64,000 bases of DNA, taken from NCBI GenBank assembly GCA_002699085.1, contig PAAR01000004.1, positions 14,839 to 78,838 of the forward strand. Reading direction: 5' to 3'. The stretch comes from Micavibrio sp. GTDB lineage: Bacteria; Pseudomonadota; Alphaproteobacteria; Micavibrionales; UBA9664. A program made the translations under genes and the position numbers. The notes beneath the pieces are model-generated. The model ran no database searches, was not told the DNA's origin, and worked only from the letters and a program-made list of their open reading frames with translations. Below, one piece after another: positions 41,872-64,000 of this stretch. Each line of letters begins with the position of its first letter. Position 1 is the stretch's first letter.

Positions 41872-41901
41872 ATCCTCCATAGATCGTACACTCACTATAA
41901 C

Positions 41902-48700: not shown

Positions 48701-50402
48701 GATCATACATTTGCCCTGGGTCAGAGTGAGGCATAGGACCAACACGGATTTTAAATGAGCCGATTTGTAAGACTGGATAATGTTCACTTTTACCGAGCTC
48801 TTTGCTGGGTAAAGTTTCTGTCCATTGCTCTATGGTAACATCATCAATAACAGTTTTTTTGCGCTTTTCTGGATCAGAAGGATTTACATCCTTGAGCATA
48901 TTAATTGTATAGCATTTTTCTAATATCTCTTCTTGAATAGACTTCTCTATTTTTAGTTCACGCATTTTGCGCTTGAGGCTAAGAAAGGTCATTTCATTCA
49001 TAATGAGCGGTGGTAATTTGTAACCCGCCTTAATCAGATAAGGGAGTTGTCCTAAATGGTCTTCATGTTTATGGGTAATAAGAATGAAATCTACGGGTGT
49101 TTCGGGTATGTGATTTTTATCAAACTTATGATGTAAAAATCTGCTCGCATTATAAAATGCAATGTCAAAAACATCATGGAACAGGACACCAGCATCAATC
49201 ATGGCGGCTTCAACTTTAATAGAGCCATCTGCTTGTACTGAACGATATGTGATGCCGTATTGATTGCCCCCAATGTTCAGGTCGTGGTCAGAGGTCAATC
49301 GACGGGAAGGATTTCCGCCAATGATTACCAAATCCATTATGCCTTGTTTTGGAATTTTCATGGGTTGGTTTAGATATTGATGTGCCTGCGTGTGAAGCAT
49401 TAACTCCGATGGCAATGCATATTTACGATTGTAAGATTTGGCCGCCAAATCTTCGATAAGTGCTTTATCGCCAGCCCGAACGGTACGATTTATATTCCTT
49501 ATAACTTTTAGGATGGTAGAAACAGCATGAGAATCTTTTAAGTCAATTTTTCGTCCTTCATATATGAGAGAGCTTATTTTGACTTGCTTGGGTTTACCTT
49601 TAACGGGTGTTGTTTTTATTTCGTATAATGTTTCTGTTTTTTCTTCATGCGTCTCTTCATTTAGAACGGATATTAATCCAGTAATATGAAGATGTGCAGG
49701 TGTTTTGCCTTGCGTATATGTGTATTCAAGGGTTGAGAAACTGTCATTGCCTTCTTTTCCATGGTGGCTAAGGACGTTATGAATTGGTTTGCCGACATAG
49801 TTATAATGCTCTGGCGCAACACCTAAAAGAGCAGGCATAAAAAAAGCCGAAAAAATGGGGTTTTCAGCTGATCTATTAAAGTTTTTTAGCGCATTAAGGT
49901 TTCGTTTTATATCGCCATTTGCATAAAGTGCTGGCCATGCTTTGCGGCCAATATTCTGTTTTATAAGATTGTGCTCTTGAAGCAATTCAATAGGGTTAAC
50001 CCATTCATTATGGCGCCCTACTTTGTCAAAAAAGTCTTTGCAGAGTCTTTCAAGTTTTTTTGTGTGCTCAGGGAGCGTAATGTCTAATGCTTCTAGTATG
50101 TCACCGGCCCGTATTTTCGCTTCGGTAATTTTTATGCGCCCATCTTCATTTTCTGCGCACTCCATGTCGAAGAAATGGATATGTTGATTGTCTGCATTGT
50201 TTTCATGCACATCATAACTACAGCGGAGGCGATAGCCTGCCTCAGTACGGGTAATTTCAAAAACAAGCGCACGGATCGTGCCGGTCTCAGAATCGGTGAG
50301 GATTGTGAAATGGCGAGACTCGCCTGTCTTCTCTAAGTTTGATAGCGTTTCTTCTATACCAAACCTAGAAAAGAAGTGCTCTTTTCTATAGCTTATGCTC
50401 AT
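45762..50402 (-). CDS. 1,546-aa fusion protein: unassigned N-terminal ~350 aa, RNase J-like metallo-beta-lactamase/beta-CASP nuclease, Exonuclease I-like DEDDh exonuclease, basic C-terminal tail
   Basis: MBL motif ILITHKHEDHLGQLPYL (49056-49073) preceded by LVIIGGN and IDAGVLFHD. Beta-CASP-like MTADSTGA, HGSGHSSEDG and TIPAHGSP. DEDDh motifs GLDTETTG (47451-47474), AAHNKPFDQRMI and LHGALAD (46878-46898). The downstream region has an ExoI C-domain layout. Confidence 0.7.
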   Translation of the reverse strand: MSISYRKEHFFSRFGIEETLSNLEKTGESRHFTILTDSETGTIRALVFEITRTEAGYRLRCSYDVHENNADNQHIHFFDMECAENEDGRIKITEAKIRAGDILEALDITLPEHTKKLERLCKDFFDKVGRHNEWVNPIELLQEHNLIKQNIGRKAWPALYANGDIKRNLNALKNFNRSAENPIFSAFFMPALLGVAPEHYNYVGKPIHNVLSHHGKEGNDSFSTLEYTYTQGKTPAHLHITGLISVLNEETHEEKTETLYEIKTTPVKGKPKQVKISSLIYEGRKIDLKDSHAVSTILKVIRNINRTVRAGDKALIEDLAAKSYNRKYALPSELMLHTQAHQYLNQPMKIPKQGIMDLVIIGGNPSRRLTSDHDLNIGGNQYGITYRSVQADGSIKVEAAMIDAGVLFHDVFDIAFYNASRFLHHKFDKNHIPETPVDFILITHKHEDHLGQLPYLIKAGYKLPPLIMNEMTFLSLKRKMRELKIEKSIQEEILEKCYTINMLKDVNPSDPEKRKKTVIDDVTIEQWTETLPSKELGKSEHYPVLQIGSFKIRVGPMPHSDPGQMYDLITPAGSLRHTGDYSRDPANRLGLPDLNTWLRGFEPDVMTADSTGANRTERNPTELEVEEDIINIVEAHAGQRMIFPMLGSNITRLATTIHALAQTDCNTLIISGKAVQDLVRDADKAHALKEWAKRMGVTILMDSQKKAKKLLKGEGAERYAILATGTQDEPQSAMNKLVRDVNDKFRLNDLDVVCYLQGVIPVGNNKWQRADSKIDIEIFHGAKVYMPEAIAKAGELTIRHGSGHSSEDGCMETIIESGKPFTIPAHGSPAQINAHMLLAEKVGAQTMRAVHNARIRIKKGKNAEVTGTEPSSFIGIKSHAPANKFWLKGRFSTIVIGVKPDPFTVAGKLIERFENAVLRDAGFTSENALASSLPFFLSPRFNVLSGNGYLTQDFPFGIERYKKSTVFEDKEIHIVTGLDTETTGKEAPEHRIYELGLILQNSETRKTIDTKIVKQQIPDYIVPSPEAMLITGLTYKDFSQGLTPASFTQAFNDAVDDLRINSQQLALKKSTKEPELVTAKNRMKVIVAAHNKPFDQRMIEKELGRNLHARLKPFETYGIIGIDTRNISRALAAFAPQKYKPHKSPSGLDDHRLSALCDAMNIKYNSRNLHGALADTQLCLKLFWKQYDISPEIVGQMVINADSSNYHLLNDMMGMATGFNGPHPVFSYVSPSALQPIPKMGCLVATMKDDQYAVVFNLKYDPYKYMSLPAEKILAMADDRKDDVFEIIDMKKNPIVMPAKFGFVVNANAGLSRETLDYRAGIVKQYRNFIDPDDNWKTLSNKISETNEGNKDQFFRSLEQPEFPILDKPLWPIKKKGPRAEQGIAKLGQIRAGNTNTGYKRITKLLSQYVSAITDDNKKEASTLYKEIMKYRPLLETAAITINNVHYDICKKDLTTDDQNEILQMRRYISFYQYHQAMREIDAIESEPERYAHFIGRSTKKKALFNEIKRWMKSNKHLGEIDDNMRNVAHPQRKYNPVHEKTPEPA

Positions 50403-50542: not shown

Positions 50543-51445
50543 ATGAAGCAAAAATCGCAATCAACAAACCACATAGGTCTCATAAAACCTCAGGTTTTTT
50601 ACTCTAACCCGCAGACTTTAAATACGAATCCTTATCAGGATAAGGAGCTGCACCATGCTGATTCTGTCGTACTTTCTAAGGCATTAGAAGAGTTTAAAGG
50701 TTTCCATGAAATGCTTGTGGATAAAGGTGTTGCTGTGACAATGTTGTTAGGACATCCAGAATGTCCAGACCACGTTTTTCCGAACTTCTTTAGTACGCAT
50801 GATAATGGGCAAGCAATTCTTTTTCCAATGATGGCAGAGAATCGTTCGAAAGAACGGACACCAGAGATTTTAGATTTTATTAAACGACATTATACGATTG
50901 CCCATGATCTCACGCATTTTGAAGCTGAGGGTAAAGCTTGTGAGGCAAATGCCAGTGTTTGTCTTGATCGTGTGAACGGCATGGCTTTTGCTGTGCTATC
51001 AAAACGGACGGATGAGGGTTTAGCGAGGCACTTAGCTGACATAATGGGTTACGATATTGTCATCGGCGAGACGGCATTAGATAATGGACTGCCTGTATAT
51101 CATACTGATCTTATGATGTTTGTTGGCGAGGGATATGCGGCTGTTTGCTTTGAGATAATGACAAAAGGGGCGGAAGAATTTAGAGACGCACTGACTAAAT
51201 TAGGTCATGAAATTGTTGAGATTAGTAAAGAGCAGCTCAATGAAATGTGTGGTAATGCGTTGCAAGTTATTGGGCAAGGCGGCCAGAAATATCTTGTAAT
51301 GTCTTCACGCGCTTTTAATGCTTTTAGAGACGATCAAAAAATGATCTTTAAAAAATATGTTGCGGATATCCTACATGCGCCAATTCCAACGATCGAGAAA
51401 TATGGCGGGGGTTCAGCACGTTGCTTGATGCAGGAGCTGTTTTAA
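50543..51445 (+). CDS. guanidino-group-modifying-enzyme fold protein (arginine-deiminase-related; CtlX-like citrulline utilisation hydrolase candidate)
   Basis: 300 aa. The C-terminal catalytic-Cys context GGGSARCLMQELF and the HTDLMM motif are typical of the amidinotransferase/ADI superfamily. Translationally coupled to ornithine cyclodeaminase. Confidence 0.6.
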   Translation: MKQKSQSTNHIGLIKPQVFYSNPQTLNTNPYQDKELHHADSVVLSKALEEFKGFHEMLVDKGVAVTMLLGHPECPDHVFPNFFSTHDNGQAILFPMMAENRSKERTPEILDFIKRHYTIAHDLTHFEAEGKACEANASVCLDRVNGMAFAVLSKRTDEGLARHLADIMGYDIVIGETALDNGLPVYHTDLMMFVGEGYAAVCFEIMTKGAEEFRDALTKLGHEIVEISKEQLNEMCGNALQVIGQGGQKYLVMSSRAFNAFRDDQKMIFKKYVADILHAPIPTIEKYGGGSARCLMQELF

Positions 51446-52449
51446 TGCTCTATGTTGATGTCGCACAAATGGTTAAATTGATCGGTAAGATTGGTGTTGA
51501 AACGGCCATTGTTGAATTAGCAGAGTATATAGAACAAGATTTTAAGCGCTGGGGCGAATTCCAAAAACAACCTCGTTATGCAGCCCACCACCCTAAAGGT
51601 GTTGTTGAATTAATGCCGATCGCTGACGACCAGCAATTTGGTTTTAAATATGTGAACGGCCATCCAGCTAATACCAAGAAAGGATTACAAACAGTCATCG
51701 CTTTTGGTGTTCTATCAGATATGGAGACAGGTTATCCATTACTATTATCAGAAATGACTTTTGGGACAGCGCTTAGAACCGCCGCCACATCAAGCTTGGC
51801 AGCAAGATACTTGGCCAGACAAGAGGCTCAAACCATGGCAATTATTGGTAATGGCAGCCAGTCAGAGTTTCAAGCTTTGGGCTTTAAAGCCATGTTAGGA
51901 ATCAAGACAATAAGGGTTTACGATATTGATCCTGATGCCTCACAAAAATTAGCGCAAAACCTTATAAATAAAGGCTTAGAAATTATCATTTGCAAAACAG
52001 CGGATGAAGCCATTTTGGGAGCTGATATTATCACGACTGTAACAGCAGATAAAAAGGCTGCCACGATTTTGTCTGATAATATGGTAGGGGCTGGCGTGCA
52101 TATAAATGCCATTGGTGGAGATTGCCCAGGCAAGACTGAGCTTCACGCAGATGTCCTAAAACGAGGGTCTGTTTTTGTTGAATATGAACCACAAACACGG
52201 ATTGAAGGGGACATCCAACAAATGTCTGAAGATTTTGCTGTAACAGAGTTGTGGCAGGTTTTTGCAAGCTTGCAAAAAGGCCGTGTTAACAACGAACAAA
52301 TCACAATTTTTGATTCTGTTGGCTTTGCGCTCGAAGACTTCTCATTCTTACGGTATATCTACGATAAAATTTGTGACTCTGGCTATGATGTGTCGCTGGA
52401 TCTATTTGCGGAACCAGATAATCCACGAGATTTATTCGGTTTGTTGTAG
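51445..52449 (+). CDS. ornithine cyclodeaminase / mu-crystallin family protein
   Basis: Rossmann segment MAIIGNGSQSEFQALGF, with TVTADKKAATIL and HINAIGGDCPGKTEL. ATG at 51445 overlaps the upstream stop (TAATG). The track start at 51421 is a TTG. Confidence 0.8.
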   Translation: MLYVDVAQMVKLIGKIGVETAIVELAEYIEQDFKRWGEFQKQPRYAAHHPKGVVELMPIADDQQFGFKYVNGHPANTKKGLQTVIAFGVLSDMETGYPLLLSEMTFGTALRTAATSSLAARYLARQEAQTMAIIGNGSQSEFQALGFKAMLGIKTIRVYDIDPDASQKLAQNLINKGLEIIICKTADEAILGADIITTVTADKKAATILSDNMVGAGVHINAIGGDCPGKTELHADVLKRGSVFVEYEPQTRIEGDIQQMSEDFAVTELWQVFASLQKGRVNNEQITIFDSVGFALEDFSFLRYIYDKICDSGYDVSLDLFAEPDNPRDLFGLL

Positions 52450-54325: not shown

Positions 54326-54356
54326 AAAAAGCCCGCTTTAATGCGGGCTTTTTTTA
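54326..54356. terminator. bidirectional intrinsic terminator between the PRC-barrel gene and the adhesin gene
   Basis: AAAAAGCCCGC-tttaat-GCGGGCTTTTTTT, with A and T runs on both sides. Confidence 0.7.
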
Positions 54357-54370: not shown

Positions 54371-57300
54371 TCAAGTTTCGGTTTGTAGAGCTTCTCTTAA
54401 CTCGGTCTGACGACGTTGTTGATATGTTAATGTATCTTCAAATTCATCGTATAAATCTCGATAAGCAGCCGTTTCAGTATCGTTTTGAGCGTTTGATTCG
54501 TTGTTATTAGCAGTCTTTTGATCGTTCTCTGCACTCATTTCTTTAAGAGCACTTAGGATATCACGGACAGTTTTGCCTTGTGGCAGTGTATGAACCTCAG
54601 TGCTTTCATTATTCGGTGTATTGTTTTCCGTCGTTTCATCTGATTGTGTCGTCAAATTTGAGTTAAAGACAACAAAATTAGAACGGTTATCTAGCATGTT
54701 TTGCATCTCAAATGTCGTATTGGCACGGATAATTTGTCCAATTCCATCTGAGCCGTAGAATGCATTTATTTGATCTGAAGCGTTACCCGTAATAAAGCTT
54801 TGAATAAGACCGTTTGAGCTGTAGTCACGATCTTCTTCTATTTTATGACCTAAATAGCCGTCTCTTGAACTATTCGGTCTATCTTGGGGAATTGTGTTTA
54901 GTGTTAGCTCGCTTGCATCTTCGATATCAATAACAAAAACCTTGTCAAAAGTACCGCCATTACCGTCATCAGTGCGGATTGTTACGCTGTGCTGCGTGGC
55001 AGTTTCGTAGTCAGCCTCTGCATTAAGCAATAATTTATTACCACTGATGAGGAACATATTATCTGGGTCAGATATGATGGTGTAAGTGAAGCTATCACTT
55101 GGTACATCAACATCATTCGTGCCTAATGTGGCAATAACATCACCAATTTCGCCCAGTTCTGAAATGCTTGTGGCGTCTGCGGTAATATCTGTTGGTGCAT
55201 CGTTTACATTAATACGAGATAGAGCAAAACTCGCAGTAGCTGCGACAGCGCCATTTTCGCCGCCATCAGCAAGTGATATATCAAAGCTACCGTCCATTTC
55301 AGAACCATCATGGATGAAATCTACACGGTTATTGTTAATGTCGTCTTGCGTGAAGGTGTTTTGTGCGACACCGCTTACTTCTATTGTGCCGTGGCTCAAA
55401 TTAGAGGCCGTGTAAGTGACATCTGTGGCTATGTCATCGCTATCGGCCATATTAAGCATGGTTGATGTAATCGTTTTTGTTCCGCCTTCAAGCACTGTTG
55501 TTCCAGTGTTTACTGTAATAGTAGGGGCATCATTGATGGGGTCTACAACCATATCAAAACGCCCTGTGCTTGCCACGACACTGTCTTCGCCGCCATCTAT
55601 GACGGATATATCAAAGCCTGCAGAAGATGTTTCTGAGCCATCATGTAAGAAGCTTACCAAGCCTGCATTAAGATCTGTTTGTGTGAAAGTGTTTTGCGTG
55701 ACGCCATTTACTTGAAGTACGCCATTTGAAAGGTTACTTGCTGTGAATGTAAGACCTGCATCAGAATCGTCATCATCCGATACATTGAGTTTTGCAGGAT
55801 CAATAACGACAGATTGCCCTTCATTAACTCTTAATTCGGCATTATTTTCAAATAAAACAAGATTTCTAAAGGAGGCGTCATTGGCGGCACTCGCATCATC
55901 ATCCGCAAAGAATGTCATATAGTTGAAATTGCCAGTAAAGAATGTACCGACTGCAATATCGTAGTGCACCCAGCCATCGCCAACATTATAGGTGTTAAAT
56001 GTTTTATTGGTCGGGGCGTAGCTTAGTTGGTCGCCCAAGAACTGGAAGGCAGATTGAATAGTACCGTCATTATCAACGTCAAAACCAAGACCTTGTACTT
56101 CACCTTCATCCGTTGCCAAGAAATCAAAGCTAAGGATTGTATCTGCTGTTATTGTGTAAGGTAGGTTAATCTTTTTCCAAGGATTACCGTTTAGTGTAAG
56201 TGTGTAGCCGTCTGGACTAATAGTCGCTGTACCAGAATCCTGACCACCCCAATAACCACTGACTGTGTAATCATTAAAGTTTACGCCGACTGTATTACCA
56301 TTTGAAATAATAAGATTTGGTGCGTCATTCACAGGCGTTACTGTAATAGCGAAAGAGTCTGTATCAGCAGAAACACTATTCTCGCCGCCATCGGCTAATG
56401 AGAGATCAAAGCCTGCCGAGGTTGTTTCAGAACCGTCATGGATGAAGACCACACGGTTATTGTTGATATCATCTTGCGTGAAAGTATTTTGTGCTACGCC
56501 ACTGACTTCGATCACACCGTTTGATAGGTTTGAGGCTGTATACGTGACATCGGTGTCAGCATCATCAACATCAGACATATCGAGCATAGCACTGGTAATT
56601 GTTTGGCTCGCCCCTTCATTTATTGTAACGCCTGTATTCACTGTAATGCTTGGCGCTTCGTTAATTGGTGTGACAGTAATGGCAAAAGAGCCAGTATCAG
56701 CAGCGGCACTATTCTCACCACCATCGGCTAATGAAATATCAAAGCCTGCCGAGGTTGTTTCAGAACCGTCATGGATGAACACCACACGGTTATTGTTGAT
56801 ATCATCTTGCGTGAAGGTGTTCTGCGCTACGCCACTGACTTCGATCACACCGTTTGATAGGTTTGATGCTGTATAAGTGACATCGGTGTCAGCATCATCA
56901 ACATCAGACATATCGAGTATGCTGCTTGTGATTGTAACACTTGCTGCCTCATCAATTGTTACACCTGTATTTGTAATAATAGTCGGTGCTTCATTGACTG
57001 GTGTGACAGTAATGGCGAAAGAGCCTGTGTCCGCCGCTGCGCTATCCTCGCCACCATCGGCTAATGAGAGATCAAAGCCAGCTGAAATGGTTTCACTATC
57101 ATCATGGATAAACACAACACGGTTATTGTTGATATCATCTTGCGTGAAGGTGTTCTGCGCTACGCCACTGACTTCAATTATACCATTAGACAGGTTTGAT
57201 GCTGTGTAGGTGACGTCTGTTGCGGCATCGTCAGCATCTGTGAGATTAAGCATTGCTGATGTTACAGTGAGGCTCGCCCCTTCATTCATCGTAGCGCCTG

Positions 57301-60300
57301 TGTTCGTCGTTATAACGGGGGCATCATTAATCGGTGTGATACTCATCGCAAAATTGCCTGTTGCAGGGGTGGAACTGTCTTCACCACCATCAGCAACTTG
57401 GATATCAAAATTAGCACCTAATGTTTCAGAGCCGTCGTGAATAAAGCTAACTAGACCCGCATCCAAATCTGCCTGAGTGAAAGTGTTTTGTGTTACACCA
57501 TTTACTTGCAAAATACCATTTGTGAGGTTGGATGCTGTCCATGTAAGGCCTGTACCAAAGTCATCAGGGTCAAATGAATCAAGCATAGCTGTTGTGATAT
57601 TTAAGGTAGCGCCTTCATCTATTGTTTGACCAACATTCGTTGCAATAATGGGGGCATCATTCGTGTTGTCGACAGTTAAATTAAATGTACCTGTCGCCGC
57701 TACTGCACCATTTTCACCACCATCAGCAATGCTGAAGTCAAAATTTGTCCCAAGTAATGGACCGCTATGTCTGAATGCTACACGAGAATTGTCAATATCG
57801 TCTTGGGTAAAGCTGGTTATGGCGACATTTGGATTCGATATAAATTCTAACTGACCATTATTCACATTAGTAATTGTGAATGTTAGACCTGTACCGTTGT
57901 CATCACTGTCGGCAGCGGCTAAGACAGACTTTTTAAGAATAACAATGCTATTTTGGTTAACACTTGAACCAAGATTTGTGCCCACAGTCGGGCTGTCATT
58001 CACATCTATTTTGTTGATGTTAAAGGTAGCTGTATCGGCAGTGGAACCATTTTCACCGCCATCAATTACAGAAATGTCAAAACGTGCATCTGCCTCGTTA
58101 CCGTCATGGCGGAATACAACCCGGTTAGCGACAAGATCGGCTTGTGTGAAGGTGATAATTGGTACATTTGGATTAGTAGATAATTCAACTTGTCCATTAA
58201 CAACGTTAGATAAGGTATAGGTAAGGCCTGTGCCAGAATCATCTGGGTCTGTCACGTTTAATTGAGTTGTTGTAATCGTAACCGTTGATCCCTCAACAAC
58301 ATCAATGCCTGTATTGGTTGTGATAATAGGCGCATCATTCACAGCTGTTTTAGTAAGTGTAAAGGTGGCTGATGCTGTGCCTGCTAGGTCTTCACCGCCA
58401 TCGGCAAGGACAACGTCAAAGCGACCATTGCCTTCATTGCCGTCATGGCGGAATACAACACGGTTATTATTAATGTCGTCTTGAGTAAAGGTGTTTTGCA
58501 CAACGCCATTCACTTCGATTGTACCGTTGAGTAAGTTTGATGCTGTATAGTCTAAATCTGTATCCGCATCATCTTGATCTAAAGAATTAAGCATCGCCGC
58601 AGTGACTACTCTGGTTCCACCTTCTACGACTGTTGTGCCTGTATTGACATTGATTGTTGGTGCATCATTGACGGGTGTAATGTTGATTGAAAATGTTTGT
58701 CCGGAAACTACAGTAGCACCGTCTGTCACCGAGAAAGTGAAGCTGTCCGAGGTGTTTTCTGAACCATTATTCACATAGGTTACAAGTCCATTTTGAATGT
58801 CATCAAGGGTAAAATTATTTATCGCTACAGCTGGGGCAGAGGTCAATGCTAAGAATCCGTTATCTGGTGTATCAGTAACACTTATTATAATGTCTGTAGC
58901 CGCAGTGTCTCCATCCGCAATATTAAGCTCTGTAGTTGTAATTGCTACATTGCCGCCTTCATTTGTTGTGACAGGATTATTGGCTGTGATAGAAAAGGTT
59001 TCACTAAAATTGACAGTGATATCAATTTCATCAAATAGGCCTGCGCCTCCAATTTCGGTGGCACGTATTGTTAGGACATATGTGTCTAAAACAGAAGGAT
59101 CAAGATTAGTGTTGTCTAAAATTGTTATTTCGCCAGTCGAAGTATTTATTTGGAAAATACCATCCGCATTACCAGCTTCGATAGTATAATTAAGAGTATT
59201 GCCAGCATCGGCGTCGGCTGCTTGCACTGAACCAACAGATGTGCCATTGGCAATATCTGAGCCATCTGTATTATTATGGCTCACCGTATAATAACTATTG
59301 TTTAGAACATCATCACGTTCCCATTCGACAACATATCGTCGACTATTACCGTTTGCTTCATCGTACCATTGCCCATTTGTATTCATAATGGCGTAATCAT
59401 TGGCAGTTGTATTAGGTTCTGAACCTGCCCATCTCTCATATGCGCCACCTACGGCTGTACCACCTTGGCTAAATTGTGTGCCAGCCTCAGGCCCAGCAAT
59501 CCATAGCCAGCTACCTTCATTGTCGATGTCAGAGGCTGCTATCCAAATATGATTACCTAAAATGTTGTCTACAAAAGTATTTTCTGCGGCCGAGGTGATC
59601 GTGACGAGATGACCTGCTGCACCATTTAACATGGCAGATTCTGCATTCGCAAGAGCAGTCGTGATGCTGACATTATTGTTATAATAGCGATACCAGTTAC
59701 CTGTGGCTGAACTATATTGAGCATTTTGGTCGATGGCATAAATAATATCTGCATCATTGAAAGAGGGTGCTTCATTGAGATCATTTAAAGTCACTGTGAA
59801 GTTACGCTCAGCATATAAAGGCGAGGCATTATCGTCTGTGGCTCTAACACGAAGTGTGAAACTTGTTTGTGTTTCGTAATCAATAAAATTTGTATCACGT
59901 ACTTGAATAACACCAGTAACGCTATTTATTTTGAAAGCATTATTTGTGTTACCACCGACAATAGAATAACTCAGTGTTTCACCAACTGTATCTGTCGCAC
60001 TTACTGTACCGACAACAGTATTGTTGGCAGAATTTTCATCAATATTAAATGGACCGCCTGCAGCAATAATTGGAGCTTCATTCACATCGATTACATTAAT
60101 TGTGATGGTGTCGGTATCTGATAAAAGCCCCGGGCCATTATCGGTTACTTGAATGGTTAGTGTGTAAGAGGTGGTTGTTTCATAATCGAGGGTTGTATTA
60201 TCAGCAACTGTGATTTGTCCTGTGGCGCTATCAATGGTAAAAATACCATTTCCTGTACCGCCTGTAATAGAATAGGTTAGCACTTGTCCTGCGCCAATTT

Positions 60301-62140
60301 CAGCATCATCGGCATCTAAATAGCCTAAACTATCGCTATTGCTAGCATCTTCGAAAACATCAAATGTTTGAGCAGGTGTAATAACGGGGGCTGTGTTGTT
60401 CGTATCAACGGTAATGTTATATGTACCAGATAGAGTAGTTGTACCGTCTGTGACATCAAAGGTGAAGCTGTCAGAAGGGTCAATGGCACCGCCATGTGTA
60501 TAGGTGACAAGTGCTTGGTCTAAATCTTCTTGTGTAAATGTATCACCTAGGCCGATGAGCACGCCATTTAGGTATAATTCACCATCGGTCGCATCTGTGG
60601 TAATTGTGTAAATAATATTTGTATCCAATGTATCAACATCATTCACGACAAGTTGTGTGTTAATATAGCTTGGTCCTACGGGCATGCGTGTGATGACAAG
60701 ATCGCTGTCAATTGTACCTTGAAAAGTTGAAGGGCCAGAGGCACTACCGTTAAATCCTCCATATGACCCCGCACCCAGCACACCGTATCCAGAATTATTC
60801 GAGCCTACATGGTCGGTTGCTGTATAGCCTGTTAAGGTTGCTTCTGGCGCACGCTCAATATTAAACCAGTCAAAATCATTGGCTTGTTGATAAGACATCC
60901 GCACTTCGTCGGTGACTTGGTCGATTTCAATGACAACGGCATATTGTGTTGATGTAGCTAAAGGCGTAGAGCTTAAACGAGGTGTGCTAGTGGCATTACT
61001 AATATAAAATCCGAGGCTATTATTCGCATCAAGGTAAAGACCTATACCGACGCCCGATCCACCAGATTCAAAAATAACTTGCCCTGGATTACTTGTAGAG
61101 GCGACAGCAGGTGTTGTGAAAATAAGAGAGATTTGACTGCTTTGGTTGTCTAAAGGAGCTTGCATATTGCCGTATTCGCCAACACCAGATCGTCTAAAAA
61201 CTTCTGTGCCAAATTGCCCAGGGCCTTCAACGCCACCAATACTTGTGGTGAAGCTTTGGAACACTGTCGTTCCTGTATTGATATCTATGCTTAGAGGGTC
61301 ATTGACAGGTGTAATACTGATATCAAATGTGTCAGTTGCGGTTGCTGCAGTTCCGTCTGACACAGTAAAATCAAAGCTGTCTGTTGTTGTTTCAGAGCCG
61401 CCATGTATATAAATCACACGGTTATTATTGATATCATCAAGGGTAAAACTTGAAATAGCGACCCCAGCATTAGTGGTAAGTTCTAATTGTCCACGAAGTG
61501 GTGCTGATGTCACAGAAACGACCACATCGCTATCGATATTATCGGGGTCTGTAATGCCTAAAGCTGTAGCATCTATGGTTTGTGTGCCACCTTCATTAAG
61601 GCTTATGCCATTATTGGTAACATCAGGTGCTTCATTTTGCGGTACGATTGTAATAGAAACGCCTTGAGAAAAATAACCATCGAGCGAAAAGTTTAGATTA
61701 TGTGTTGTCGTTGGATTATCGGATGTGTTTTGGTAGGTAACATTTTCGATCAGGCGTTCAATGGCCGCCTTTGTTGTGGTGTTATCAAAGTTAATGATAA
61801 GATCAGTACCATCTTGGCCATCTGAGACGATTGTACCAATTTGTGTACCACCAAAAGTTATATTCGTTCCATCAAAGCCAATTTGTCCAGCTCCCGTCCC
61901 TTCATTACGAATACTTAAATCATCTTGAGCTAGGCCTGTAGAGGTGACGTGGAAGGTTTCGCCGTTAAAATCAAGCGTTGTACCTGTGATTGTTACATCG
62001 CCATCAATCACCGCAGGGGCGGCATTTGAGACATCTTCACCAATAACTGTAGATGTGATAAGGCCTGCCAGTGACGCATCAAACATCATGCGCTTTTCTA
62101 GCTCTAAAATACCTATCTTTTTTCTACGAATACCGACCAT
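54371..62140 (-). CDS. giant (2,589 aa) mosaic repeat adhesin
   Basis: About a dozen ~111-aa modules with the core TFTQDDINNNRVVFIHDGSE...F.(I/L)S(L/V)ADGGE...VNDAP (CSPG/cadherin-like type). Four classical cadherin repeats (…LDYETTTSYTLTIQVTDNG…VIDVNEAP). LamG/ConA-like region ~60680-61135. C-type-lectin-like region ~59320-59720 (HIWIAASDIDNEGSWLWIAGPEAG). CBM-like insert ~55850-56317. Acidic/Gln-rich C-terminus. Confidence 0.8.
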   Translation of the reverse strand: MVGIRRKKIGILELEKRMMFDASLAGLITSTVIGEDVSNAAPAVIDGDVTITGTTLDFNGETFHVTSTGLAQDDLSIRNEGTGAGQIGFDGTNITFGGTQIGTIVSDGQDGTDLIINFDNTTTKAAIERLIENVTYQNTSDNPTTTHNLNFSLDGYFSQGVSITIVPQNEAPDVTNNGISLNEGGTQTIDATALGITDPDNIDSDVVVSVTSAPLRGQLELTTNAGVAISSFTLDDINNNRVIYIHGGSETTTDSFDFTVSDGTAATATDTFDISITPVNDPLSIDINTGTTVFQSFTTSIGGVEGPGQFGTEVFRRSGVGEYGNMQAPLDNQSSQISLIFTTPAVASTSNPGQVIFESGGSGVGIGLYLDANNSLGFYISNATSTPRLSSTPLATSTQYAVVIEIDQVTDEVRMSYQQANDFDWFNIERAPEATLTGYTATDHVGSNNSGYGVLGAGSYGGFNGSASGPSTFQGTIDSDLVITRMPVGPSYINTQLVVNDVDTLDTNIIYTITTDATDGELYLNGVLIGLGDTFTQEDLDQALVTYTHGGAIDPSDSFTFDVTDGTTTLSGTYNITVDTNNTAPVITPAQTFDVFEDASNSDSLGYLDADDAEIGAGQVLTYSITGGTGNGIFTIDSATGQITVADNTTLDYETTTSYTLTIQVTDNGPGLLSDTDTITINVIDVNEAPIIAAGGPFNIDENSANNTVVGTVSATDTVGETLSYSIVGGNTNNAFKINSVTGVIQVRDTNFIDYETQTSFTLRVRATDDNASPLYAERNFTVTLNDLNEAPSFNDADIIYAIDQNAQYSSATGNWYRYYNNNVSITTALANAESAMLNGAAGHLVTITSAAENTFVDNILGNHIWIAASDIDNEGSWLWIAGPEAGTQFSQGGTAVGGAYERWAGSEPNTTANDYAIMNTNGQWYDEANGNSRRYVVEWERDDVLNNSYYTVSHNNTDGSDIANGTSVGSVQAADADAGNTLNYTIEAGNADGIFQINTSTGEITILDNTNLDPSVLDTYVLTIRATEIGGAGLFDEIDITVNFSETFSITANNPVTTNEGGNVAITTTELNIADGDTAATDIIISVTDTPDNGFLALTSAPAVAINNFTLDDIQNGLVTYVNNGSENTSDSFTFSVTDGATVVSGQTFSINITPVNDAPTINVNTGTTVVEGGTRVVTAAMLNSLDQDDADTDLDYTASNLLNGTIEVNGVVQNTFTQDDINNNRVVFRHDGNEGNGRFDVVLADGGEDLAGTASATFTLTKTAVNDAPIITTNTGIDVVEGSTVTITTTQLNVTDPDDSGTGLTYTLSNVVNGQVELSTNPNVPIITFTQADLVANRVVFRHDGNEADARFDISVIDGGENGSTADTATFNINKIDVNDSPTVGTNLGSSVNQNSIVILKKSVLAAADSDDNGTGLTFTITNVNNGQLEFISNPNVAITSFTQDDIDNSRVAFRHSGPLLGTNFDFSIADGGENGAVAATGTFNLTVDNTNDAPIIATNVGQTIDEGATLNITTAMLDSFDPDDFGTGLTWTASNLTNGILQVNGVTQNTFTQADLDAGLVSFIHDGSETLGANFDIQVADGGEDSSTPATGNFAMSITPINDAPVITTNTGATMNEGASLTVTSAMLNLTDADDAATDVTYTASNLSNGIIEVSGVAQNTFTQDDINNNRVVFIHDDSETISAGFDLSLADGGEDSAAADTGSFAITVTPVNEAPTIITNTGVTIDEAASVTITSSILDMSDVDDADTDVTYTASNLSNGVIEVSGVAQNTFTQDDINNNRVVFIHDGSETTSAGFDISLADGGENSAAADTGSFAITVTPINEAPSITVNTGVTINEGASQTITSAMLDMSDVDDADTDVTYTASNLSNGVIEVSGVAQNTFTQDDINNNRVVFIHDGSETTSAGFDLSLADGGENSVSADTDSFAITVTPVNDAPNLIISNGNTVGVNFNDYTVSGYWGGQDSGTATISPDGYTLTLNGNPWKKINLPYTITADTILSFDFLATDEGEVQGLGFDVDNDGTIQSAFQFLGDQLSYAPTNKTFNTYNVGDGWVHYDIAVGTFFTGNFNYMTFFADDDASAANDASFRNLVLFENNAELRVNEGQSVVIDPAKLNVSDDDDSDAGLTFTASNLSNGVLQVNGVTQNTFTQTDLNAGLVSFLHDGSETSSAGFDISVIDGGEDSVVASTGRFDMVVDPINDAPTITVNTGTTVLEGGTKTITSTMLNMADSDDIATDVTYTASNLSHGTIEVSGVAQNTFTQDDINNNRVDFIHDGSEMDGSFDISLADGGENGAVAATASFALSRINVNDAPTDITADATSISELGEIGDVIATLGTNDVDVPSDSFTYTIISDPDNMFLISGNKLLLNAEADYETATQHSVTIRTDDGNGGTFDKVFVIDIEDASELTLNTIPQDRPNSSRDGYLGHKIEEDRDYSSNGLIQSFITGNASDQINAFYGSDGIGQIIRANTTFEMQNMLDNRSNFVVFNSNLTTQSDETTENNTPNNESTEVHTLPQGKTVRDILSALKEMSAENDQKTANNNESNAQNDTETAAYRDLYDEFEDTLTYQQRRQTELREALQTET
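56318..57316 (-). repeat. three consecutive 333-bp in-frame tandem repeat units (adhesin modules 6-8)
   Basis: Unit boundaries at 56318/56651/56984/57316, mapped from the (V/I)N(D/E)AP junctions. The exact 41-nt string GTGACATCGGTGTCAGCATCATCAACATCAGACATATCGAG occurs at 56544-56584 and 56877-56917. Modules 7 and 8 share a 60-residue identical stretch. Confidence 0.85.
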
Positions 62141-62215: not shown

Positions 62216-64000
62216 CTAATTCACGCCACTTTCTTGAATAATGAGCGCAATGAACTTTTTTATGTAATAAATCAATGGAATAGAGCGTTTTCCATGTATC
62301 TTCAAATGCCCTCGATAAATGAGCGGCATATCATTGCTCGGTGTTGTTTCTGTCAGGGTTATTTTATAAAAACTTTTGGTCGATTTACTTTGTTGGTTTT
62401 GTGAAATACTGGTGACAGGGCCGCCGTAAGTCGTTGATAATTCTGGCCATTCTATATCAGTATTATTTATCTGTTCTATACTAGTAACTGTTAATGGATG
62501 GGCCTCTGAAAGGCTATAAGCAGGCGTAAAAGTTGCTTTGTCGCCTCGTTCAATACGGGCTAAATTCGTTTCTTCAACATAGGCAATGTAATTGTTTTGT
62601 GTTTCTTTTTGGACAAGGCGGAAGAGAAGCTCAGTGTCACTAATGTTTCTATCTGCATGGATGTCAGGCATTAAATCATAAATTTTCCCATCAAAAGGTG
62701 CTGTAATAATCAGTTGCTCTCGTTTCTTTTTTAATGAAGCGAGCTCTTGTGTCGCTTCAGCAATATTTTCATCAATGAGACTGCGTCGTTCACGGTAAAG
62801 TTGAGGGTTTGTTTGTTCGCGTCTTTTTGTGTCGAGAAGCGTTTTAAGACGTTCTTGGCTTAGCTTAATATTTTTTTCTAAAAGTGGCGAAGAAAGAGTA
62901 GCTAATGTTTGGCTTTGTGAAACCTCATCATCATTTTCGACAAGTATTTTTTCAATATAGGCTGGACTTGGCGCATATATATTTTGGTAAGAGGCAGGGG
63001 TAACAATCGCTACGGTGTTAATCGTACCGCCTGTCGGAAAAACAATAAATAACAAGAGGATTACAATAAAAGTACCGCGAATAAAGCGATCTTTATCTGA
63101 TTTTATGCTTTCAAACTTACCGGTTAAATATTTGATTTCTTTTAATATTGGTAGGATTATAAACCAAGATATCTCAACAAGAAATAAGATAAGTCCAAGC
63201 GGTTTGAAAAAGACATGATAGACCAGAACGGCGATCCCTAGATAAAGAAGGAAACGATAGATTATAACACCTAAGCCGAACAATGTGAGGAAACGCTGAC
63301 GTTGAGGTAATACATCTTCTGGACGTTCTTCTTTAAGTCCAAAAATATGCCAACGGAGCCAATGTTTGGCAAAGGCAATAGCTTTTTGATGAAGATTCTC
63401 AATCCCCAGATAATCGCTTAACACATAATAGCCATCATAGCGCATGAAAGGATTTAGGTTGACGAAAATAGAGCCAACTAAAGAGATGGCAACTACACTA
63501 AATGCGAGGCTTTGGCCGAGTGCAGAGGGGGTTAAATGCCAATAAATTAGAAAGATAGCGGCTAAAACAAACTCCGTCATAACACCCGCTAAGCCCATCA
63601 TCATGCGTGCTTTTGATGAAGGAATACGCCAACTTCCAGACATTTCGGTATATAAAACAGGGTACATGACCATAAAAGCAACACCCATATGTGGCACAGG
63701 AATACCATAGTGTTTGGCCATGAAAGCATGGCCAAATTCATGGAAAATTTTAATAATGAAAAAGGCTGTGGCAACGAGCATTAGCCCCTCTGCCGTGAAA
63801 ATTTGTGTGAACGTATGAAAGAATTCATCGCTTCGTGGTAGGGTTAAAAAGAACCCAAACGCCAGTAAGGCTAGGCAAGATAGAAAAAAGGTCTTTGTAA
63901 ACACACCTTTGATATAAGGATATGCCGCATCAAGAAATTTTTGTGGCCTGATGATTGGAATCGTAAAAAATAAATAGCCATGTAATGCCTGCTTCCATAA
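62216..64000 (-). CDS. fusion of an M50 (site-2-protease-like) membrane metalloprotease domain with a HlyD-type membrane-fusion/adaptor domain; 5' end beyond the right edge
   Basis: HEFGH (63728-63742) and NLNPFMRYDGYY (the second S2P motif) lie within multiple TM helices. The C-terminal half has the HlyD layout (IYAPSPAYIEKILV..., a long coiled coil, IITAPFDGKIYDL). The track start at 63904 is a GTG, and my translation shows the frame stays open to 64000 (…LWKQALHGYLFFTIPIIRPQKFLDAAYPYIKG-). Confidence 0.65.
   Translation of the reverse strand, partial: LWKQALHGYLFFTIPIIRPQKFLDAAYPYIKGVFTKTFFLSCLALLAFGFFLTLPRSDEFFHTFTQIFTAEGLMLVATAFFIIKIFHEFGHAFMAKHYGIPVPHMGVAFMVMYPVLYTEMSGSWRIPSSKARMMMGLAGVMTEFVLAAIFLIYWHLTPSALGQSLAFSVVAISLVGSIFVNLNPFMRYDGYYVLSDYLGIENLHQKAIAFAKHWLRWHIFGLKEERPEDVLPQRQRFLTLFGLGVIIYRFLLYLGIAVLVYHVFFKPLGLILFLVEISWFIILPILKEIKYLTGKFESIKSDKDRFIRGTFIVILLLFIVFPTGGTINTVAIVTPASYQNIYAPSPAYIEKILVENDDEVSQSQTLATLSSPLLEKNIKLSQERLKTLLDTKRREQTNPQLYRERRSLIDENIAEATQELASLKKKREQLIITAPFDGKIYDLMPDIHADRNISDTELLFRLVQKETQNNYIAYVEETNLARIERGDKATFTPAYSLSEAHPLTVTSIEQINNTDIEWPELSTTYGGPVTSISQNQQSKSTKSFYKITLTETTPSNDMPLIYRGHLKIHGKRSIPLIYYIKKFIALIIQESGVN

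What the first reader, a model, noticed from the sequence alone, without database searches (positions are those of the whole stretch)
54371..62140. 2,589-aa adhesin combining animal-ECM-type domains: CSPG-like modules, cadherin repeats, LamG-like, C-type-lectin-like and CBM-like inserts
Seen: a single ORF with the following layout. An N-terminal ~165-aa region is followed by one module and a LamG/ConA-like region (~60680-61135), then a partial module and two cadherin repeats (~59770-60400). Next come a C-type-lectin-like domain without the usual Cys pairs (~59320-59720; HIWIAASDIDNEGSWLWIAGPEAG...NGQWYDEANGNSRRYVVEWE) and a cadherin repeat. Eight ~111-aa modules follow (~56318-59010), then a ~155-aa beta-rich insert that looks like a carbohydrate-binding module (~55850-56317). 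The protein ends with two more modules, a last cadherin repeat and an acidic/Gln/Asn-rich tail. The module core (TFTQ(D/A)D(I/L)...V.F.HDGSE...F) matches what I recall of CSPG repeats (NG2/FRAS1-type, 'cadherin-like 3'). Inference: two putative sugar-binding inserts embedded in a rigid repeat stalk suggest glycan-directed attachment to a eukaryotic or algal surface. The combination is unusual enough to be worth a domain-level description.
Basis: partly seen in the sequence, partly recalled or inferred. Interest (0 to 1): 0.55.

Follow-up and report, generated by a model that had tools for sequence, protein, structure and literature searches.

The report
Giant lectin-bearing bacterial surface adhesin
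This is a real 2,589-residue calcium-type fibre protein from a marine Micavibrio-like bacterium, built of cadherin-type repeats with three nested probable binding domains; that makes it a fairly ordinary kind of giant adhesin, but it sits beside an unusual, apparently undescribed export gene set.

Summary
ORF 54371-62140 (-) encodes a 2,589-aa protein with no Cys, a very acidic composition and no RTX repeats. It has 12 Cadherin_3/CSPG-type modules, 4 classical cadherin repeats and one Pfam-significant C-type lectin domain. EPN and WYD motifs in that domain are invariant in six orthologues.

The "CBM-like" insert folds confidently (pLDDT 87.8) into a β-jelly roll. Its best PDB matches are CBM11/6/29/30/35, but only at fold level (TM 0.4-0.5). 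It belongs to a large family (≥2,078 clusters at 50% identity) that no Pfam model hits. The "LamG-like" call could not be verified: no HMM or PDB match, only about 8 orthologues, and an unusable model (pLDDT 40.6).

All three inserts appear nested inside split repeats. This is the architecture described for ligand-binding domains of RTX adhesins. Repeat collapse is unlikely: modules are ≤84% identical in DNA, and the same protein is recorded on several assembled contigs.

The source is a Tara MAG labelled Micavibrio sp., so prey bacteria are as plausible a target as algae.

Unexpectedly, the gene ends a cassette of TolC-like protein, two HlyD-like adaptors and an M50-protease::HlyD fusion, with no ABC ATPase. 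The OMF comes from orthologous loci. In 62 of 80 related loci this cassette precedes a giant protein that starts with an LE(P/K)R…FD(A/G) motif.

The parts
54371..62140 (-). Complete CDS of the 2,589-aa giant adhesin (MAS86503.1, CMH30_00790, MAG 'Micavibrio sp.')
62072..62101 (-). N-terminal leader motif LEKRMMFDAS (aa 14-23), preceded by basic RRKK. It is a divergent form of the LEPR-XLL motif.
   Evidence: Conserved in orthologues (LEKRLM[LF]DASL) and matched by LEPRMLFDGA in Pseudomonas giants in the same gene context. The NF012209 HMM does not hit it.
61637..62035 (-). N-terminal domain (aa ~36-168) of unknown fold, conserved in orthologues
   Evidence: No Pfam or NCBIfam hit. 168-181 bits to three orthologues.
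61304..61636 (-). Cadherin_3/CSPG-type module 1 (aa 169-279)
61241..61303 (-). First strand region of split module 2 (aa 280-300)
   Evidence: Weak match to module positions 1-21 (score -2.2, E 0.22) plus direct reading (NDPLSIDINTGTTV...)
60662..61240 (-). Insert A (aa 301-493): lineage-restricted β-rich domain. The 'LamG-like' call is unverified.
60407..60661 (-). Remainder of split module 2 (aa 494-578; module positions 24-107)
59777..60406 (-). Two classical cadherin repeats (aa 582-686 and 687-788) with xEx, DxD, LDYE, DxGxP and DxNEAP Ca2+-site motifs
   Evidence: motifs read directly from the sequence
59720..59776 (-). Probable A-strand of split cadherin repeat 3 (aa 789-807, NEAPSFNDADIIYAIDQNA)
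   Evidence: The repeat after the CTLD aligns only from HMM position 18. Inference.
59276..59719 (-). C-type lectin-like domain (aa ~808-955). No Cys. EPN and WYD motifs are invariant in six orthologues.
58994..59275 (-). Remainder of cadherin repeat 3 (aa 956-1049)
56330..58993 (-). Eight tandem Cadherin_3 modules (aa 1050-1937), the stalk
56291..56329 (-). First strand of split module 11 (aa 1938-1950, NDAPNLIISNGNT)
   Evidence: direct reading
55844..56290 (-). Insert C (aa 1951-2099): CBM-type β-jelly roll, member of a large family with no Pfam match
55535..55843 (-). Remainder of split module 11 (aa 2100-2202; module positions 9-110)
55205..55534 (-). Cadherin_3 module 12 (aa 2203-2312)
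54914..55204 (-). Cadherin repeat 4 (aa 2313-2409)
54371..54913 (-). Acidic, Asn/Gln-rich tail ending in the conserved motif YDEFEDTLTYQQRRQTELREAL, read by me as a probable helix (aa 2410-2589, plus stop)
   Evidence: Tail conserved in L002. The terminal motif is shared by P0078 and P0072 and echoed in Pseudomonas giants.
54326..54353 (.). Hairpin with T/A runs on both sides (terminator-like) between the adhesin and the convergent gene
62216..64000 (-). 3' part of the M50 (site-2-protease-like)::HlyD fusion gene directly upstream. It is 708 aa in full on L001, with HEFGH and NLNPFMRYDG motifs intact.

Best explanation
The gene encodes a giant, secreted, calcium-stiffened cell-surface fibre, that is, an adhesin.

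Shown:
- It is a chain of 16 cadherin-fold repeats (12 Cadherin_3/CSPG-type and 4 classical). The classical repeats carry the Ca2+-linker motifs.
- The composition is Cys-free and extremely acidic.
- Three globular domains interrupt the chain: a lineage-specific β-rich domain (insert A), a C-type lectin domain that keeps the EPN motif, and a CBM-type β-jelly roll.

Inferred:
- Each globular domain is spliced into a split repeat, so it projects sideways from the stalk. This is the arrangement that marks ligand-binding domains in characterised RTX adhesins.
- The CTLD and the jelly roll bind glycans on another cell's surface, in a Ca2+-dependent way.
- The N-terminal ~1,050 residues are the binding head. 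They are conserved in orthologues, whereas module number and insert-C copy number vary (0-2), so the Cadherin_3 array acts as a variable-length extender.
- Export does not use a classical ABC-type T1SS. The gene is the last member of a conserved cassette (TolC-like OMF, HlyD, HlyD-like, M50-protease::HlyD). The N-terminal LE(K/P)R..FD(A/G) leader is the likely recognition or processing element for the M50 domain.
- The target is most likely a glycan on a prey or neighbouring cell, because the source genome is labelled Micavibrio.
For: Domain content.

Composition.

Nested inserts: module HMM positions 1-21 and 24-107 flank insert A, and module positions 9-110 resume right after insert C. The cadherin HMM resumes at position 18 after the CTLD.

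CTLD: 38 bits against a cut-off of 22.6. PDB sequence hits to CLEC10A (1.3e-5), ASGR1, SP-D and DC-SIGN. EPN and WYD are invariant in six orthologues.

Insert C: pLDDT 87.8, pTM 0.82. The top Foldseek hits are mostly CBMs (CBM11, CBM6, CBM29, CBM30), SGBP-B and a lectin, interspersed with CBM-like domains of glycosidases and reelin; E 1.6e-4 to 1e-3.

Conserved head and variable stalk.

Cassette. 62 of 80 loci carry an LE.R-leader giant downstream on the same strand. M50 catalytic motifs are intact. No ABC-type ORF occurs in L002, L004 or L005.

Split-domain principle, with experimental glycan binding by a CBM in AhLap: PMC12077191.

The M. aeruginosavorus genome paper proposed that its lectin- and VWF-bearing giant RTX proteins act in prey recognition and adhesion: PMC3189940.
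Against: - No binding, localisation or secretion data exist for this protein or any orthologue.
- The CTLD lacks all disulfide cysteines. It has WYD instead of WND, and a variable residue where the third Ca2+ ligand (E of 'EDC') would lie. Ca2+/sugar binding may therefore be lost, as in many CTLDs.
- Insert C matches CBMs only at TM 0.4-0.5 with about 10-17% identity. β-jelly rolls also bind proteins.
- The fold of insert A is unknown.
- The nested topology rests on HMM coordinates, not on a confident 3D model of the junctions.
- An ABC exporter could be encoded elsewhere. The OMF gene was seen only in orthologous loci, because the contig L001 ends inside the first HlyD gene.
- MAG taxonomic labels are approximate.
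Confidence: 0.6

Rival explanations
1. It is a matrix, aggregation or S-layer-like scaffold. The fibre would mediate Ca2+-dependent self-association between sibling cells or within a biofilm through its cadherin-type repeats. The inserts would play a structural or exopolysaccharide-tethering role rather than recognise a foreign cell.
For: 16 cadherin-fold repeats, with Ca2+ motifs in the classical ones. The composition is very acidic. Insert C family members also occur in tandem arrays of up to 8 copies in proteins carrying subtilase or PhoPQ-related/β-helix domains, so the domain is not adhesin-specific.
Against: The head carrying the CTLD and insert A is the conserved part, and the repeats are the variable part. 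That is the pattern expected of a ligand-binding tip plus extender. Invariant EPN across orthologues suggests a maintained sugar/Ca2+ site.
Confidence: 0.2
2. It is a classical RTX/LapA-type T1SS adhesin, exported C-terminus first by an ABC transporter encoded elsewhere and retained through its N-terminus. The adjacent HlyD/M50 genes would be unrelated efflux components.
For: The overall look (giant, acidic, Cys-free, repeat stalk, split-domain inserts) matches RTX adhesins (PMC12077191; bioRxiv 10.1101/2025.09.30.679566). A conserved C-terminal motif, read here as a probable helix, could serve as a secretion signal.
Against: There are no GGxGxD nonapeptides at all. The putative ligand-binding domains cluster in the N-terminal half, whereas in RTX adhesins they are typically C-terminal (bioRxiv 10.1101/2025.09.30.679566). 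Linkage of the cassette to LE.R-leader giants in 62 of 80 loci, in genomes labelled Micavibrio, Pseudobdellovibrionaceae, Pseudomonas, Halopseudomonas and Salinicola among others, argues against a chance neighbourhood. No ABC ORF is present in the closest loci.
Confidence: 0.12
3. It is an assembly artefact: a chimera, or a collapsed repeat array that misrepresents the true gene.
For: The source is a short-read metagenome assembly, and the gene contains tandem 333-bp repeats.
Against: Modules are at most 84% identical in DNA and the longest exact repeat is 59 bp. The identical 2,589-aa protein is on six contigs. Orthologues from other genomes are collinear through the head, and one shares the tail.
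Confidence: 0.04

Closest known systems
RTX (LapA-type) fibrillar adhesins with split-domain ligand-binding regions: Aeromonas hydrophila AhLap, Marinomonas primoryensis MpIBP, Vibrio cholerae FrhA (PMC12077191, PMC5550230, PMC12970687)
   Same: Giant, repeat-built fibre. Ligand-binding domains, including CBM-type lectin modules, emerge from split repeats. MFP and OMF genes lie next to the gene (the OMF was seen in orthologous loci).
   Different: No RTX nonapeptides. The extender is Cadherin_3/CSPG-type. The putative binding domains are concentrated in the N-terminal half. There is an N-terminal LE(K/P)R leader. The neighbouring cassette has an M50-protease::HlyD fusion and no ABC ATPase.
LEPR-XLL (NCBIfam NF012209 'LEPR-8K') giant proteins, e.g. 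Pseudomonas DUF4347 + Big_12 giants
   Same: Same gene context, downstream of HlyD-like + M50::HlyD. The leader motif sits at the same place (LEPRMLFDGA against LEKRMMFDAS). The C-terminus ends in a similar Q/L-rich motif.
   Different: The window protein does not score with NF012209; the Pseudomonas and Halopseudomonas leaders reach 16.0-16.2 bits against a cut-off of 17. There is no DUF4347 or Big_12, and the body is made of Cadherin_3, Cadherin, CTLD and insert C. In the one Pseudomonas locus annotated (L010), a PMT_2 glycosyltransferase and a sulfotransferase gene lie between the cassette and the giant.
   Same: Highly significant HMM matches. Cadherin Ca2+-linker motifs are present.
   Different: Bacterial context, no transmembrane or cytoplasmic cadherin parts, and no Cys. 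The similarity is at domain-family level and gives no evidence of an animal-like function.
Animal C-type lectin carbohydrate-recognition domains (CLEC10A/MGL, ASGR1, SP-D, DC-SIGN)
   Same: Pfam Lectin_C above cut-off, plus PDB sequence hits. An EPN tripeptide sits at the position of the sugar/Ca2+-site motif, and the WIGL-like and terminal strands are recognisable.
   Different: None of the conserved disulfide cysteines. WND is replaced by WYD, and the 'ED' ligand position is variable. The domain is embedded in a cadherin repeat.
β-jelly-roll carbohydrate-binding modules (CBM11 1v0a, CBM6 5fui, CBM29 1w9f, CBM30 1wzx, CBM35 2vzp; SGBP-B 7kwc)
   Same: Fold class. The domain is often found in multiple copies next to extracellular enzymes.
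   Different: No sequence-level membership in any family. TM is only 0.4-0.5. No Pfam model matches any of 37 diverse members.
Micavibrio aeruginosavorus 'hemolysin-related' RTX proteins with lectin or VWF motifs (PMC3189940)
   Same: Giant secreted proteins with lectin-type motifs in a Micavibrio genome, proposed to act in prey recognition and adhesion.
   Different: Those proteins are RTX proteins with predicted T1SS signals, and one sits next to TolC, HlyB and HlyD genes. This protein has no RTX repeats and a different cassette.

Membership tests
Cadherin_3 / CSPG repeat (PF16184) | Significant match to the family HMM over the full ~106-residue repeat | tested here: met
   E 2.8e-235, 764 bits, 12 stretches; the best stretch covers HMM positions 3-106
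Classical cadherin repeat (PF00028) | HMM match above cut-off | tested here: met
   143.5 bits against a cut-off of 28.8, 4 stretches
Classical cadherin repeat (PF00028) | Ca2+-binding linker motifs (xEx, DxD, LDRE-like, DxGxP, DxNDxxP) | tested here: met
   Read directly in aa 582-788: FEDA/DENS, DADDAE/ATDT, LDYE/IDYE, TDNGPG, DVNEAP/DLNEAP. Metal binding itself was not tested.
C-type lectin domain (PF00059) | HMM match above the gathering score | tested here: met
   32.4 bits (whole protein) and 38 bits (segment) against 22.6; CLEC10A E 1.3e-5
C-type lectin domain (PF00059) | Conserved disulfide cysteines of the CTLD fold | tested here: not met
   The whole protein has 0 Cys
C-type lectin domain (PF00059) | Ca2+ site-2 / sugar-binding motifs EPN (or QPD) and WND | tested here: inconclusive
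   EPN is invariant in six orthologues. WND is replaced by an invariant WYD. The residue at the 'E' of 'EDC' is variable and is followed by D/N.
Laminin G / ConA-like (Laminin_G_3, LamG) | HMM or profile match to a LamG/ConA-like family | tested here: not met
   No such hit at E ≤ 10 for the window segment or any of 7 orthologues. The PDB sequence and profile searches found nothing relevant.
Laminin G / ConA-like (Laminin_G_3, LamG) | ConA-like β-sandwich fold | tested here: inconclusive
   AF2 with 3 sequences gave pLDDT 40.6. Foldseek had no hit at E ≤ 0.001; the best was 0.041. A few ConA-like entries (lentil lectin, pentraxin, neurexin LNS) appear among non-significant hits.
Carbohydrate-binding module (β-jelly-roll CBMs) | β-jelly-roll fold similar to solved CBMs | tested here: met
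   Model pLDDT 87.8. 24 PDB hits at E ≤ 1e-3, among them many CBMs and CBM-like domains of glycosidases. TM 0.4-0.5.
Carbohydrate-binding module (β-jelly-roll CBMs) | Sequence membership in a defined CBM family | tested here: not met
   No Pfam model matches the window copy or 36 relatives. No PDB sequence hit. CAZy itself was not searchable.
Carbohydrate-binding module (β-jelly-roll CBMs) | Demonstrated carbohydrate binding | not testable with these tools
   Needs glycan array or ITC on the recombinant domain
RTX (LapA-type) T1SS adhesin | C-terminal RTX nonapeptide repeats (GGxGxDxUx) | tested here: not met
   No GG.G.D match anywhere in the protein
RTX (LapA-type) T1SS adhesin | Dedicated ABC transporter + MFP + OMF genes | tested here: not met
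   MFP genes are present, and an OMF is present in orthologous loci. No ABC-type ORF occurs in L002, L004 or L005. The inner-membrane partner is an M50::HlyD fusion. The rest of the genome was not searched.
RTX (LapA-type) T1SS adhesin | Ligand-binding domains emerging from split extender domains | tested here: met
   HMM coordinates on both sides of all three inserts. Not confirmed by a 3D model of the junctions.
LEPR-XLL domain proteins (NCBIfam NF012209) | Match to the 24-position N-terminal HMM | tested here: not met
   No hit at E ≤ 10 for the window N-terminus or the L003/L005 orthologues. Pseudomonas and Halopseudomonas giants in the same context score 16.0-16.2 against a cut-off of 17.
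LEPR-XLL domain proteins (NCBIfam NF012209) | LE-x-R-hydrophobic-hydrophobic-F/L-D/S-A/G motif within the first ~40 residues of a giant protein | tested here: met
   LEKRMMFDAS at aa 14-23. The same pattern occurs in 62 of 80 loci next to M50::HlyD homologues.

The most novel reading that the evidence does not exclude
The adhesin is a substrate of an undescribed envelope-spanning export route: a TolC-like channel, two HlyD-like adaptors, and an adaptor fused to an active site-2-type (M50) intramembrane metalloprotease, with no ABC ATPase. The route would recognise, and perhaps cleave, an N-terminal LE(P/K)R..FD(A/G) leader. The fibre would then be mounted with the opposite polarity to RTX adhesins: binding head at the N-terminus, anchor or signal at the C-terminal motif. 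The cassette-giant pairing occurs in genomes labelled Micavibrio, Pseudobdellovibrionaceae, Pseudomonas, Halopseudomonas, Salinicola and Janthinobacterium. Separately, insert C would define a large, un-modelled CBM-like domain family.
Probability: 0.3. Interest if true: 0.72.

Novelty: new variant of a known kind. Interest (0 to 1): 0.45.

Why it matters
As a domain description the protein is one more giant bacterial adhesin. It does extend the split-domain ligand-binding principle to a non-RTX, Cadherin_3-based fibre, and it places an EPN-type C-type lectin domain in such a fibre.

Two by-products matter more:
- The CBM-like insert belongs to a family of more than 2,000 sequence clusters with no Pfam model. 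It would be a useful new domain definition for annotating marine and soil exoproteins.
- The tight linkage between M50::HlyD cassettes and LEPR-leader giants, including in culturable Pseudomonas, makes it directly testable how these giants leave the cell without an adjacent ABC transporter.

If the MAG is truly Micavibrio-like, the protein is also a candidate prey-attachment fibre of an epibiotic predator.

Tried and rejected
- **Insert A homologues and fold.** The search for homologous proteins with insert A as a single sequence returned nothing. A profile search found only two Tara fragments. A metagenome scan added three loci, one of them identical to L003. The MSA therefore stayed too shallow. 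The permitted three-sequence alignment gave pLDDT 40.6, and its Foldseek output is not interpretable.
- **Insert C by word index.** The search for homologous proteins found nothing for insert C, although full HMMER found 2,078 relatives. That search was wasted.
- **Inserts A and C related?** hhalign of insert A against insert C gave probability 0.2, so they are unrelated.
- **N-terminal domain and tail.** Neither has a Pfam or NCBIfam match.
- **Literature.** Searches for LEPR-XLL, DUF4347, M50+HlyD+giant, and site-2 protease+HlyD+adhesin found no study of the cassette. My recollection that AhLap carries a C-type lectin was wrong; its three domains are a CBM, an RTX-like β-roll and a vWFA domain.
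- **Repeat collapse or chimera.** Rejected.
- **Classical T1SS.** Considered and down-weighted: no RTX repeats and no ABC gene nearby.
Full report
**1. The observation**

The window has a single minus-strand ORF at 54371-62140, with an ATG start and 2,589 codons. The whole-protein Pfam scan gives:
- Cadherin_3 (PF16184), E 2.8e-235, 12 matched stretches
- Cadherin (PF00028), 143.5 bits, 4 stretches
- Lectin_C (PF00059), 32.4 bits against a curated cut-off of 22.6; 38 bits when the segment is scanned alone

I built an HMM from eight of the ~111-aa modules. It places copies at aa 169-279, 494-578 (partial), 1050-1937 (eight in tandem), 2100-2202 and 2203-2312. A cadherin HMM places repeats at aa 582-686, 687-788, 963-1045 and 2313-2409.

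The protein has no cysteine, 364 Asp+Glu against 71 Lys+Arg, and not one GGxGxD RTX motif.

**2. Not an assembly artefact**

- The most similar pair of modules is 84% identical in DNA, and the longest exact internal repeat is 59 bp.
- TRF reports only three 333-bp copies, at 81% matches.
- The identical protein is recorded by NCBI (MAS86503.1, CMH30_00790, "MAG: Micavibrio sp."), JGI/IMG and ENA, and was read on six contigs.
- Orthologues from other genomes are collinear with it.

**3. The three inserts**

*(a) C-type lectin domain, aa ~808-955.*
- It passes Pfam's threshold and hits solved animal CRDs by sequence: CLEC10A at 1.3e-5, then ASGR1, SP-D and DC-SIGN.
- In an alignment of six orthologues, the tripeptide EPN in W-x-G-(S/A)-EPN is invariant. 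This is the position of the Ca2+/sugar-site motif of mannose-type CRDs.
- The WND motif is replaced by an invariant WYD. The residue equivalent to the Glu of "EDC" is variable and is followed by D/N.
- With no cysteines, the fold must do without the canonical disulfides.
- Family membership by HMM is therefore met, the disulfide criterion is not met, and the sugar-site criterion is ambiguous.

- It has no Pfam or PDB sequence match.
- A full HMMER scan of 1.84 billion representative proteins found 2,078 relatives at E ≤ 1e-3 and 351 at E ≤ 1e-30.
- Relatives often carry tandem arrays of up to eight copies with a period of ~160 aa.
- The host proteins also carry subtilase, PhoPQ-related plus β-helix, or Cadherin_3 domains.
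- None of 37 diverse members matches any Pfam-A model.
- A 37-sequence alignment shows the signature GNxWKK … EFDF … GEIHGIGFD … FQLxGTQ … GWxHYxIPVGxFxTG … DDD … FRNxxxYE.
- With that alignment AlphaFold2 gives a confident all-β model: pLDDT 87.8, pTM 0.82.
- Foldseek against the PDB returns 24 hits at E ≤ 1e-3. Many are carbohydrate-binding modules (CBM11, CBM6, CBM29, CBM30, CBM35, SGBP-B), alongside CBM-like domains of glycosidases, reelin and a plant lectin. TM-scores are 0.4-0.5 and identity is about 10-17%.
- The fold-level "CBM-like" call is supported. Membership of a particular CBM family, and sugar binding itself, are not.

- No Pfam hit to any LamG or ConA-like family appears for the window copy or for any of seven orthologues, even at E ≤ 10.
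- No PDB hit appears by sequence or by profile.
- Homologues exist only in the orthologous adhesins, about eight sequences in all.
- The only alignment I was allowed to submit had three sequences. It gave an unusable model with pLDDT 40.6.
- Foldseek on that model gives nothing at E ≤ 0.001; the best hit is at 0.041. A sprinkling of ConA-like entries sits among non-significant hits.
- The order of motifs resembles Laminin_G_3 as I recall it: ISLIFTTP … VIFESGG … GIGLYL … YAVVIEID … EVRMSY … FQGTIDSDLVITR. That is a lead from memory, not a test. The claim stays open.
- Inserts A and C are unrelated (hhalign probability 0.2).

**4. Architecture: nested inserts**

The module HMM matches aa 280-300 to module positions 1-21 only weakly (score -2.2, E 0.22), while aa 494-578 match positions 24-107 at E 6.9e-11. 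Insert A therefore appears to lie inside module 2. Module positions 9-110 resume at aa 2100, directly after insert C, and NDAPNLIISNGNT precedes the insert. The cadherin repeat that follows the CTLD aligns only from HMM position 18, and a cadherin-like A-strand (NEAPSFNDADIIYAIDQNA) precedes the CTLD.

All three globular domains therefore appear spliced into split β-sandwich repeats. [quoted passage not shown] They validated it by showing micromolar fucosyl-glycan binding by the split-domain CBM of Aeromonas AhLap (PMC12077191). The junction geometry here is inferred from HMM coordinates, not from a confident model.

**5. Orthologues: conserved head, variable stalk**

Giant ORFs in L002 and L003 (Micavibrio-labelled MAGs), in L005 (a MAG labelled Pseudobdellovibrionaceae), in metagenome loci L082 and L084, and in P0078 share these parts at the same positions: the N-terminal 168 aa, module 1, insert A, the two cadherins and the CTLD. 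Insert C is present in 0 (L005), 1 (L002) or 2 (L003) copies, and total length ranges from 2,217 aa to more than 3,296 aa. The N-terminal ~1,050 residues behave as a conserved functional head, and the Cadherin_3 array behaves as a variable extender.

The tail ends in a conserved motif, …FEDxLTYQQxxQxxLREAL, which I read as a probable helix. Pseudomonas giants end in a similar motif, …LQQLKDxEQxQ…LAxAL.

**6. Gene neighbourhood**

Directly upstream on the same strand, across a 75-bp gap, lies the 3' part of a gene that is 708 aa in full on contig L001. It has an M50 (site-2-protease-type) membrane domain fused to a HlyD-type periplasmic adaptor. Both S2P catalytic motifs are intact: HEFGH and NLNPFMRYDG. 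Its best NCBIfam match is the daptide intramembrane metalloprotease model, at E 1.5e-43 but well below that model's cut-off. Two further HlyD-family genes precede it.

In the orthologous loci the cassette reads: OEP/TolC-like (~500 aa), HlyD (~515-590 aa), HlyD-like (~440 aa), M50::HlyD (~710-720 aa), giant protein. I found no ORF with both a Walker A motif and LSGGQ in L002, L004 or L005.

A scan of GTDB representative genomes found 314 relatives of the fusion protein, of which the best 80 loci were kept. In 62 of those 80, a same-strand ORF of more than 500 aa lies downstream and starts with LE-x-R-[ML][ML][FL]-D-[GA][AS]. Most of these ORFs are cut by the locus edge at more than 1,800 aa. 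Typical starts are LEPRMLFDGAVAATVA in Pseudomonas and LEKRLMFDASL in the Micavibrio group. The Pseudomonas giant carries DUF4347 and 12 Big_12 repeats. Its leader scores 16.2 bits on NCBIfam NF012209 ("LEPR-8K / LEPR-XLL domain"), just under the cut-off of 17. The Micavibrio-type leaders do not score.

I found no paper on this cassette or its link to LEPR giants in the searchable library.

A terminator-like hairpin at 54326-54353 separates the adhesin from the convergent downstream gene.

**7. Mechanism, with status**

Shown:
- Domain content, composition and orthologue pattern.
- The gene linkage.

Inferred:
- The protein is exported and displayed as a Ca2+-rigidified fibre. The classical repeats carry the xEx, DxD, LDYE, DxGxP and DxNEAP motifs.
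- The CTLD and insert C, and possibly insert A, bind ligands on another cell's surface, probably glycans.
- The conserved N-terminal head is the distal tip and the C-terminal tail is the proximal or signal end. This would be the reverse of RTX adhesins, whose ligand-binding domains are typically C-terminal (bioRxiv 10.1101/2025.09.30.679566).
- The M50 domain recognises or cleaves the LE(K/P)R leader. This would be analogous to leader removal by peptidase domains of bacteriocin exporters, an analogy from general knowledge.

How the chain crosses the inner membrane without an adjacent ABC ATPase is unexplained.

**8. Target**

Nothing in the data points specifically to eukaryotes or algae. The MAG is labelled Micavibrio sp., and one orthologue sits in a MAG labelled Pseudobdellovibrionaceae. 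These labels are approximate. The M. aeruginosavorus genome paper already proposed that giant secreted proteins with lectin and VWF motifs serve in prey recognition and adhesion (PMC3189940). A prey-bacterium glycan such as LPS or capsule is therefore at least as likely as an algal surface.

**9. Verdict**

The protein is a new variant of a known kind, the giant fibrillar adhesin with split-domain ligand-binding modules. It is non-RTX and Cadherin_3-based, and it carries an EPN-type CTLD. Taken alone the finding is of moderate interest. The by-products raise it somewhat: a large CBM-like domain family with no Pfam match, and an M50::HlyD cassette with no adjacent ABC gene that is tightly linked to LEPR-leader giants.

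Noticed in passing
window 62216-64000 (-); L001:1-4819; L002:5613-12109; L003, L005; 62 of loci L002-L081: A conserved cassette (TolC-like OMF, HlyD, HlyD-like, M50 site-2-protease::HlyD fusion; no ABC ATPase nearby) lies upstream of giant proteins that start with LE(P/K/A)R[ML][ML][FL]D[GA][AS]. Genome labels include Micavibrio, Pseudobdellovibrionaceae, Pseudomonas, Halopseudomonas, Salinicola and Janthinobacterium. No literature on it was found.
   Followed up: partly
window 55844-56290 (-), aa 1951-2099; alignment A1: The CBM-like insert belongs to a family of at least 2,078 clusters at 50% identity. Members often form tandem arrays of up to 8 copies, next to subtilase or PhoPQ-related/β-helix domains. 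No Pfam-A model matches any of the 37 members tested, so it is a candidate new domain family.
   Followed up: yes
C-termini of the window protein (54374-54450), L002, P0072, P0078, and Pseudomonas giants in L012, L028, L054, L060, L063, L073: All of these cassette-linked giants (and P0072/P0078, whose gene context was not checked) end in a Q/L-rich motif that I read as a probable helix: FEDxLTYQQ..Q..LREAL, or LQQLKDxEQ.Q...LA.AL in Pseudomonas. It may be a C-terminal signal or anchor. L005 has a more divergent version.
   Followed up: partly
L010:13738-16392: In the one Pseudomonas locus annotated, a PMT_2-type glycosyltransferase gene and a sulfotransferase gene sit between the M50::HlyD cassette and the LEPR giant. 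This hints that the giant may be glycosylated or sulfated.
   Followed up: no
window 45762-50402 (-): A 1,546-aa protein combines metallo-β-lactamase/β-CASP (RNase J-like) hits with an RNase_T-type exonuclease domain. It is an unusually large nuclease fusion, and its protein cluster has a single member.
   Followed up: no
window 50543-52449 (+): Adjacent, slightly overlapping genes encode a eukaryotic-type dimethylarginine dimethylaminohydrolase (DDAH_eukar, E 5e-68) and an ornithine cyclodeaminase/mu-crystallin protein (E 7e-119). They may form an arginine-derivative to proline route.
   Followed up: no
window 42688-45765 (+) and 41062-41895 (-): A further probable surface protein of 1,025 aa has sub-threshold CarboxypepD_reg and SdrD_B hits. 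A 277-aa protein has a sub-threshold Fn3-like hit.
   Followed up: no
L005 (MAG labelled Pseudobdellovibrionaceae) against the window (MAG labelled Micavibrio): Adhesin orthologues with 59-61% identity over insert A and its split module occur in MAGs assigned to two different predatory lineages. This could reflect horizontal transfer between predators or a mislabelled bin.
   Followed up: no
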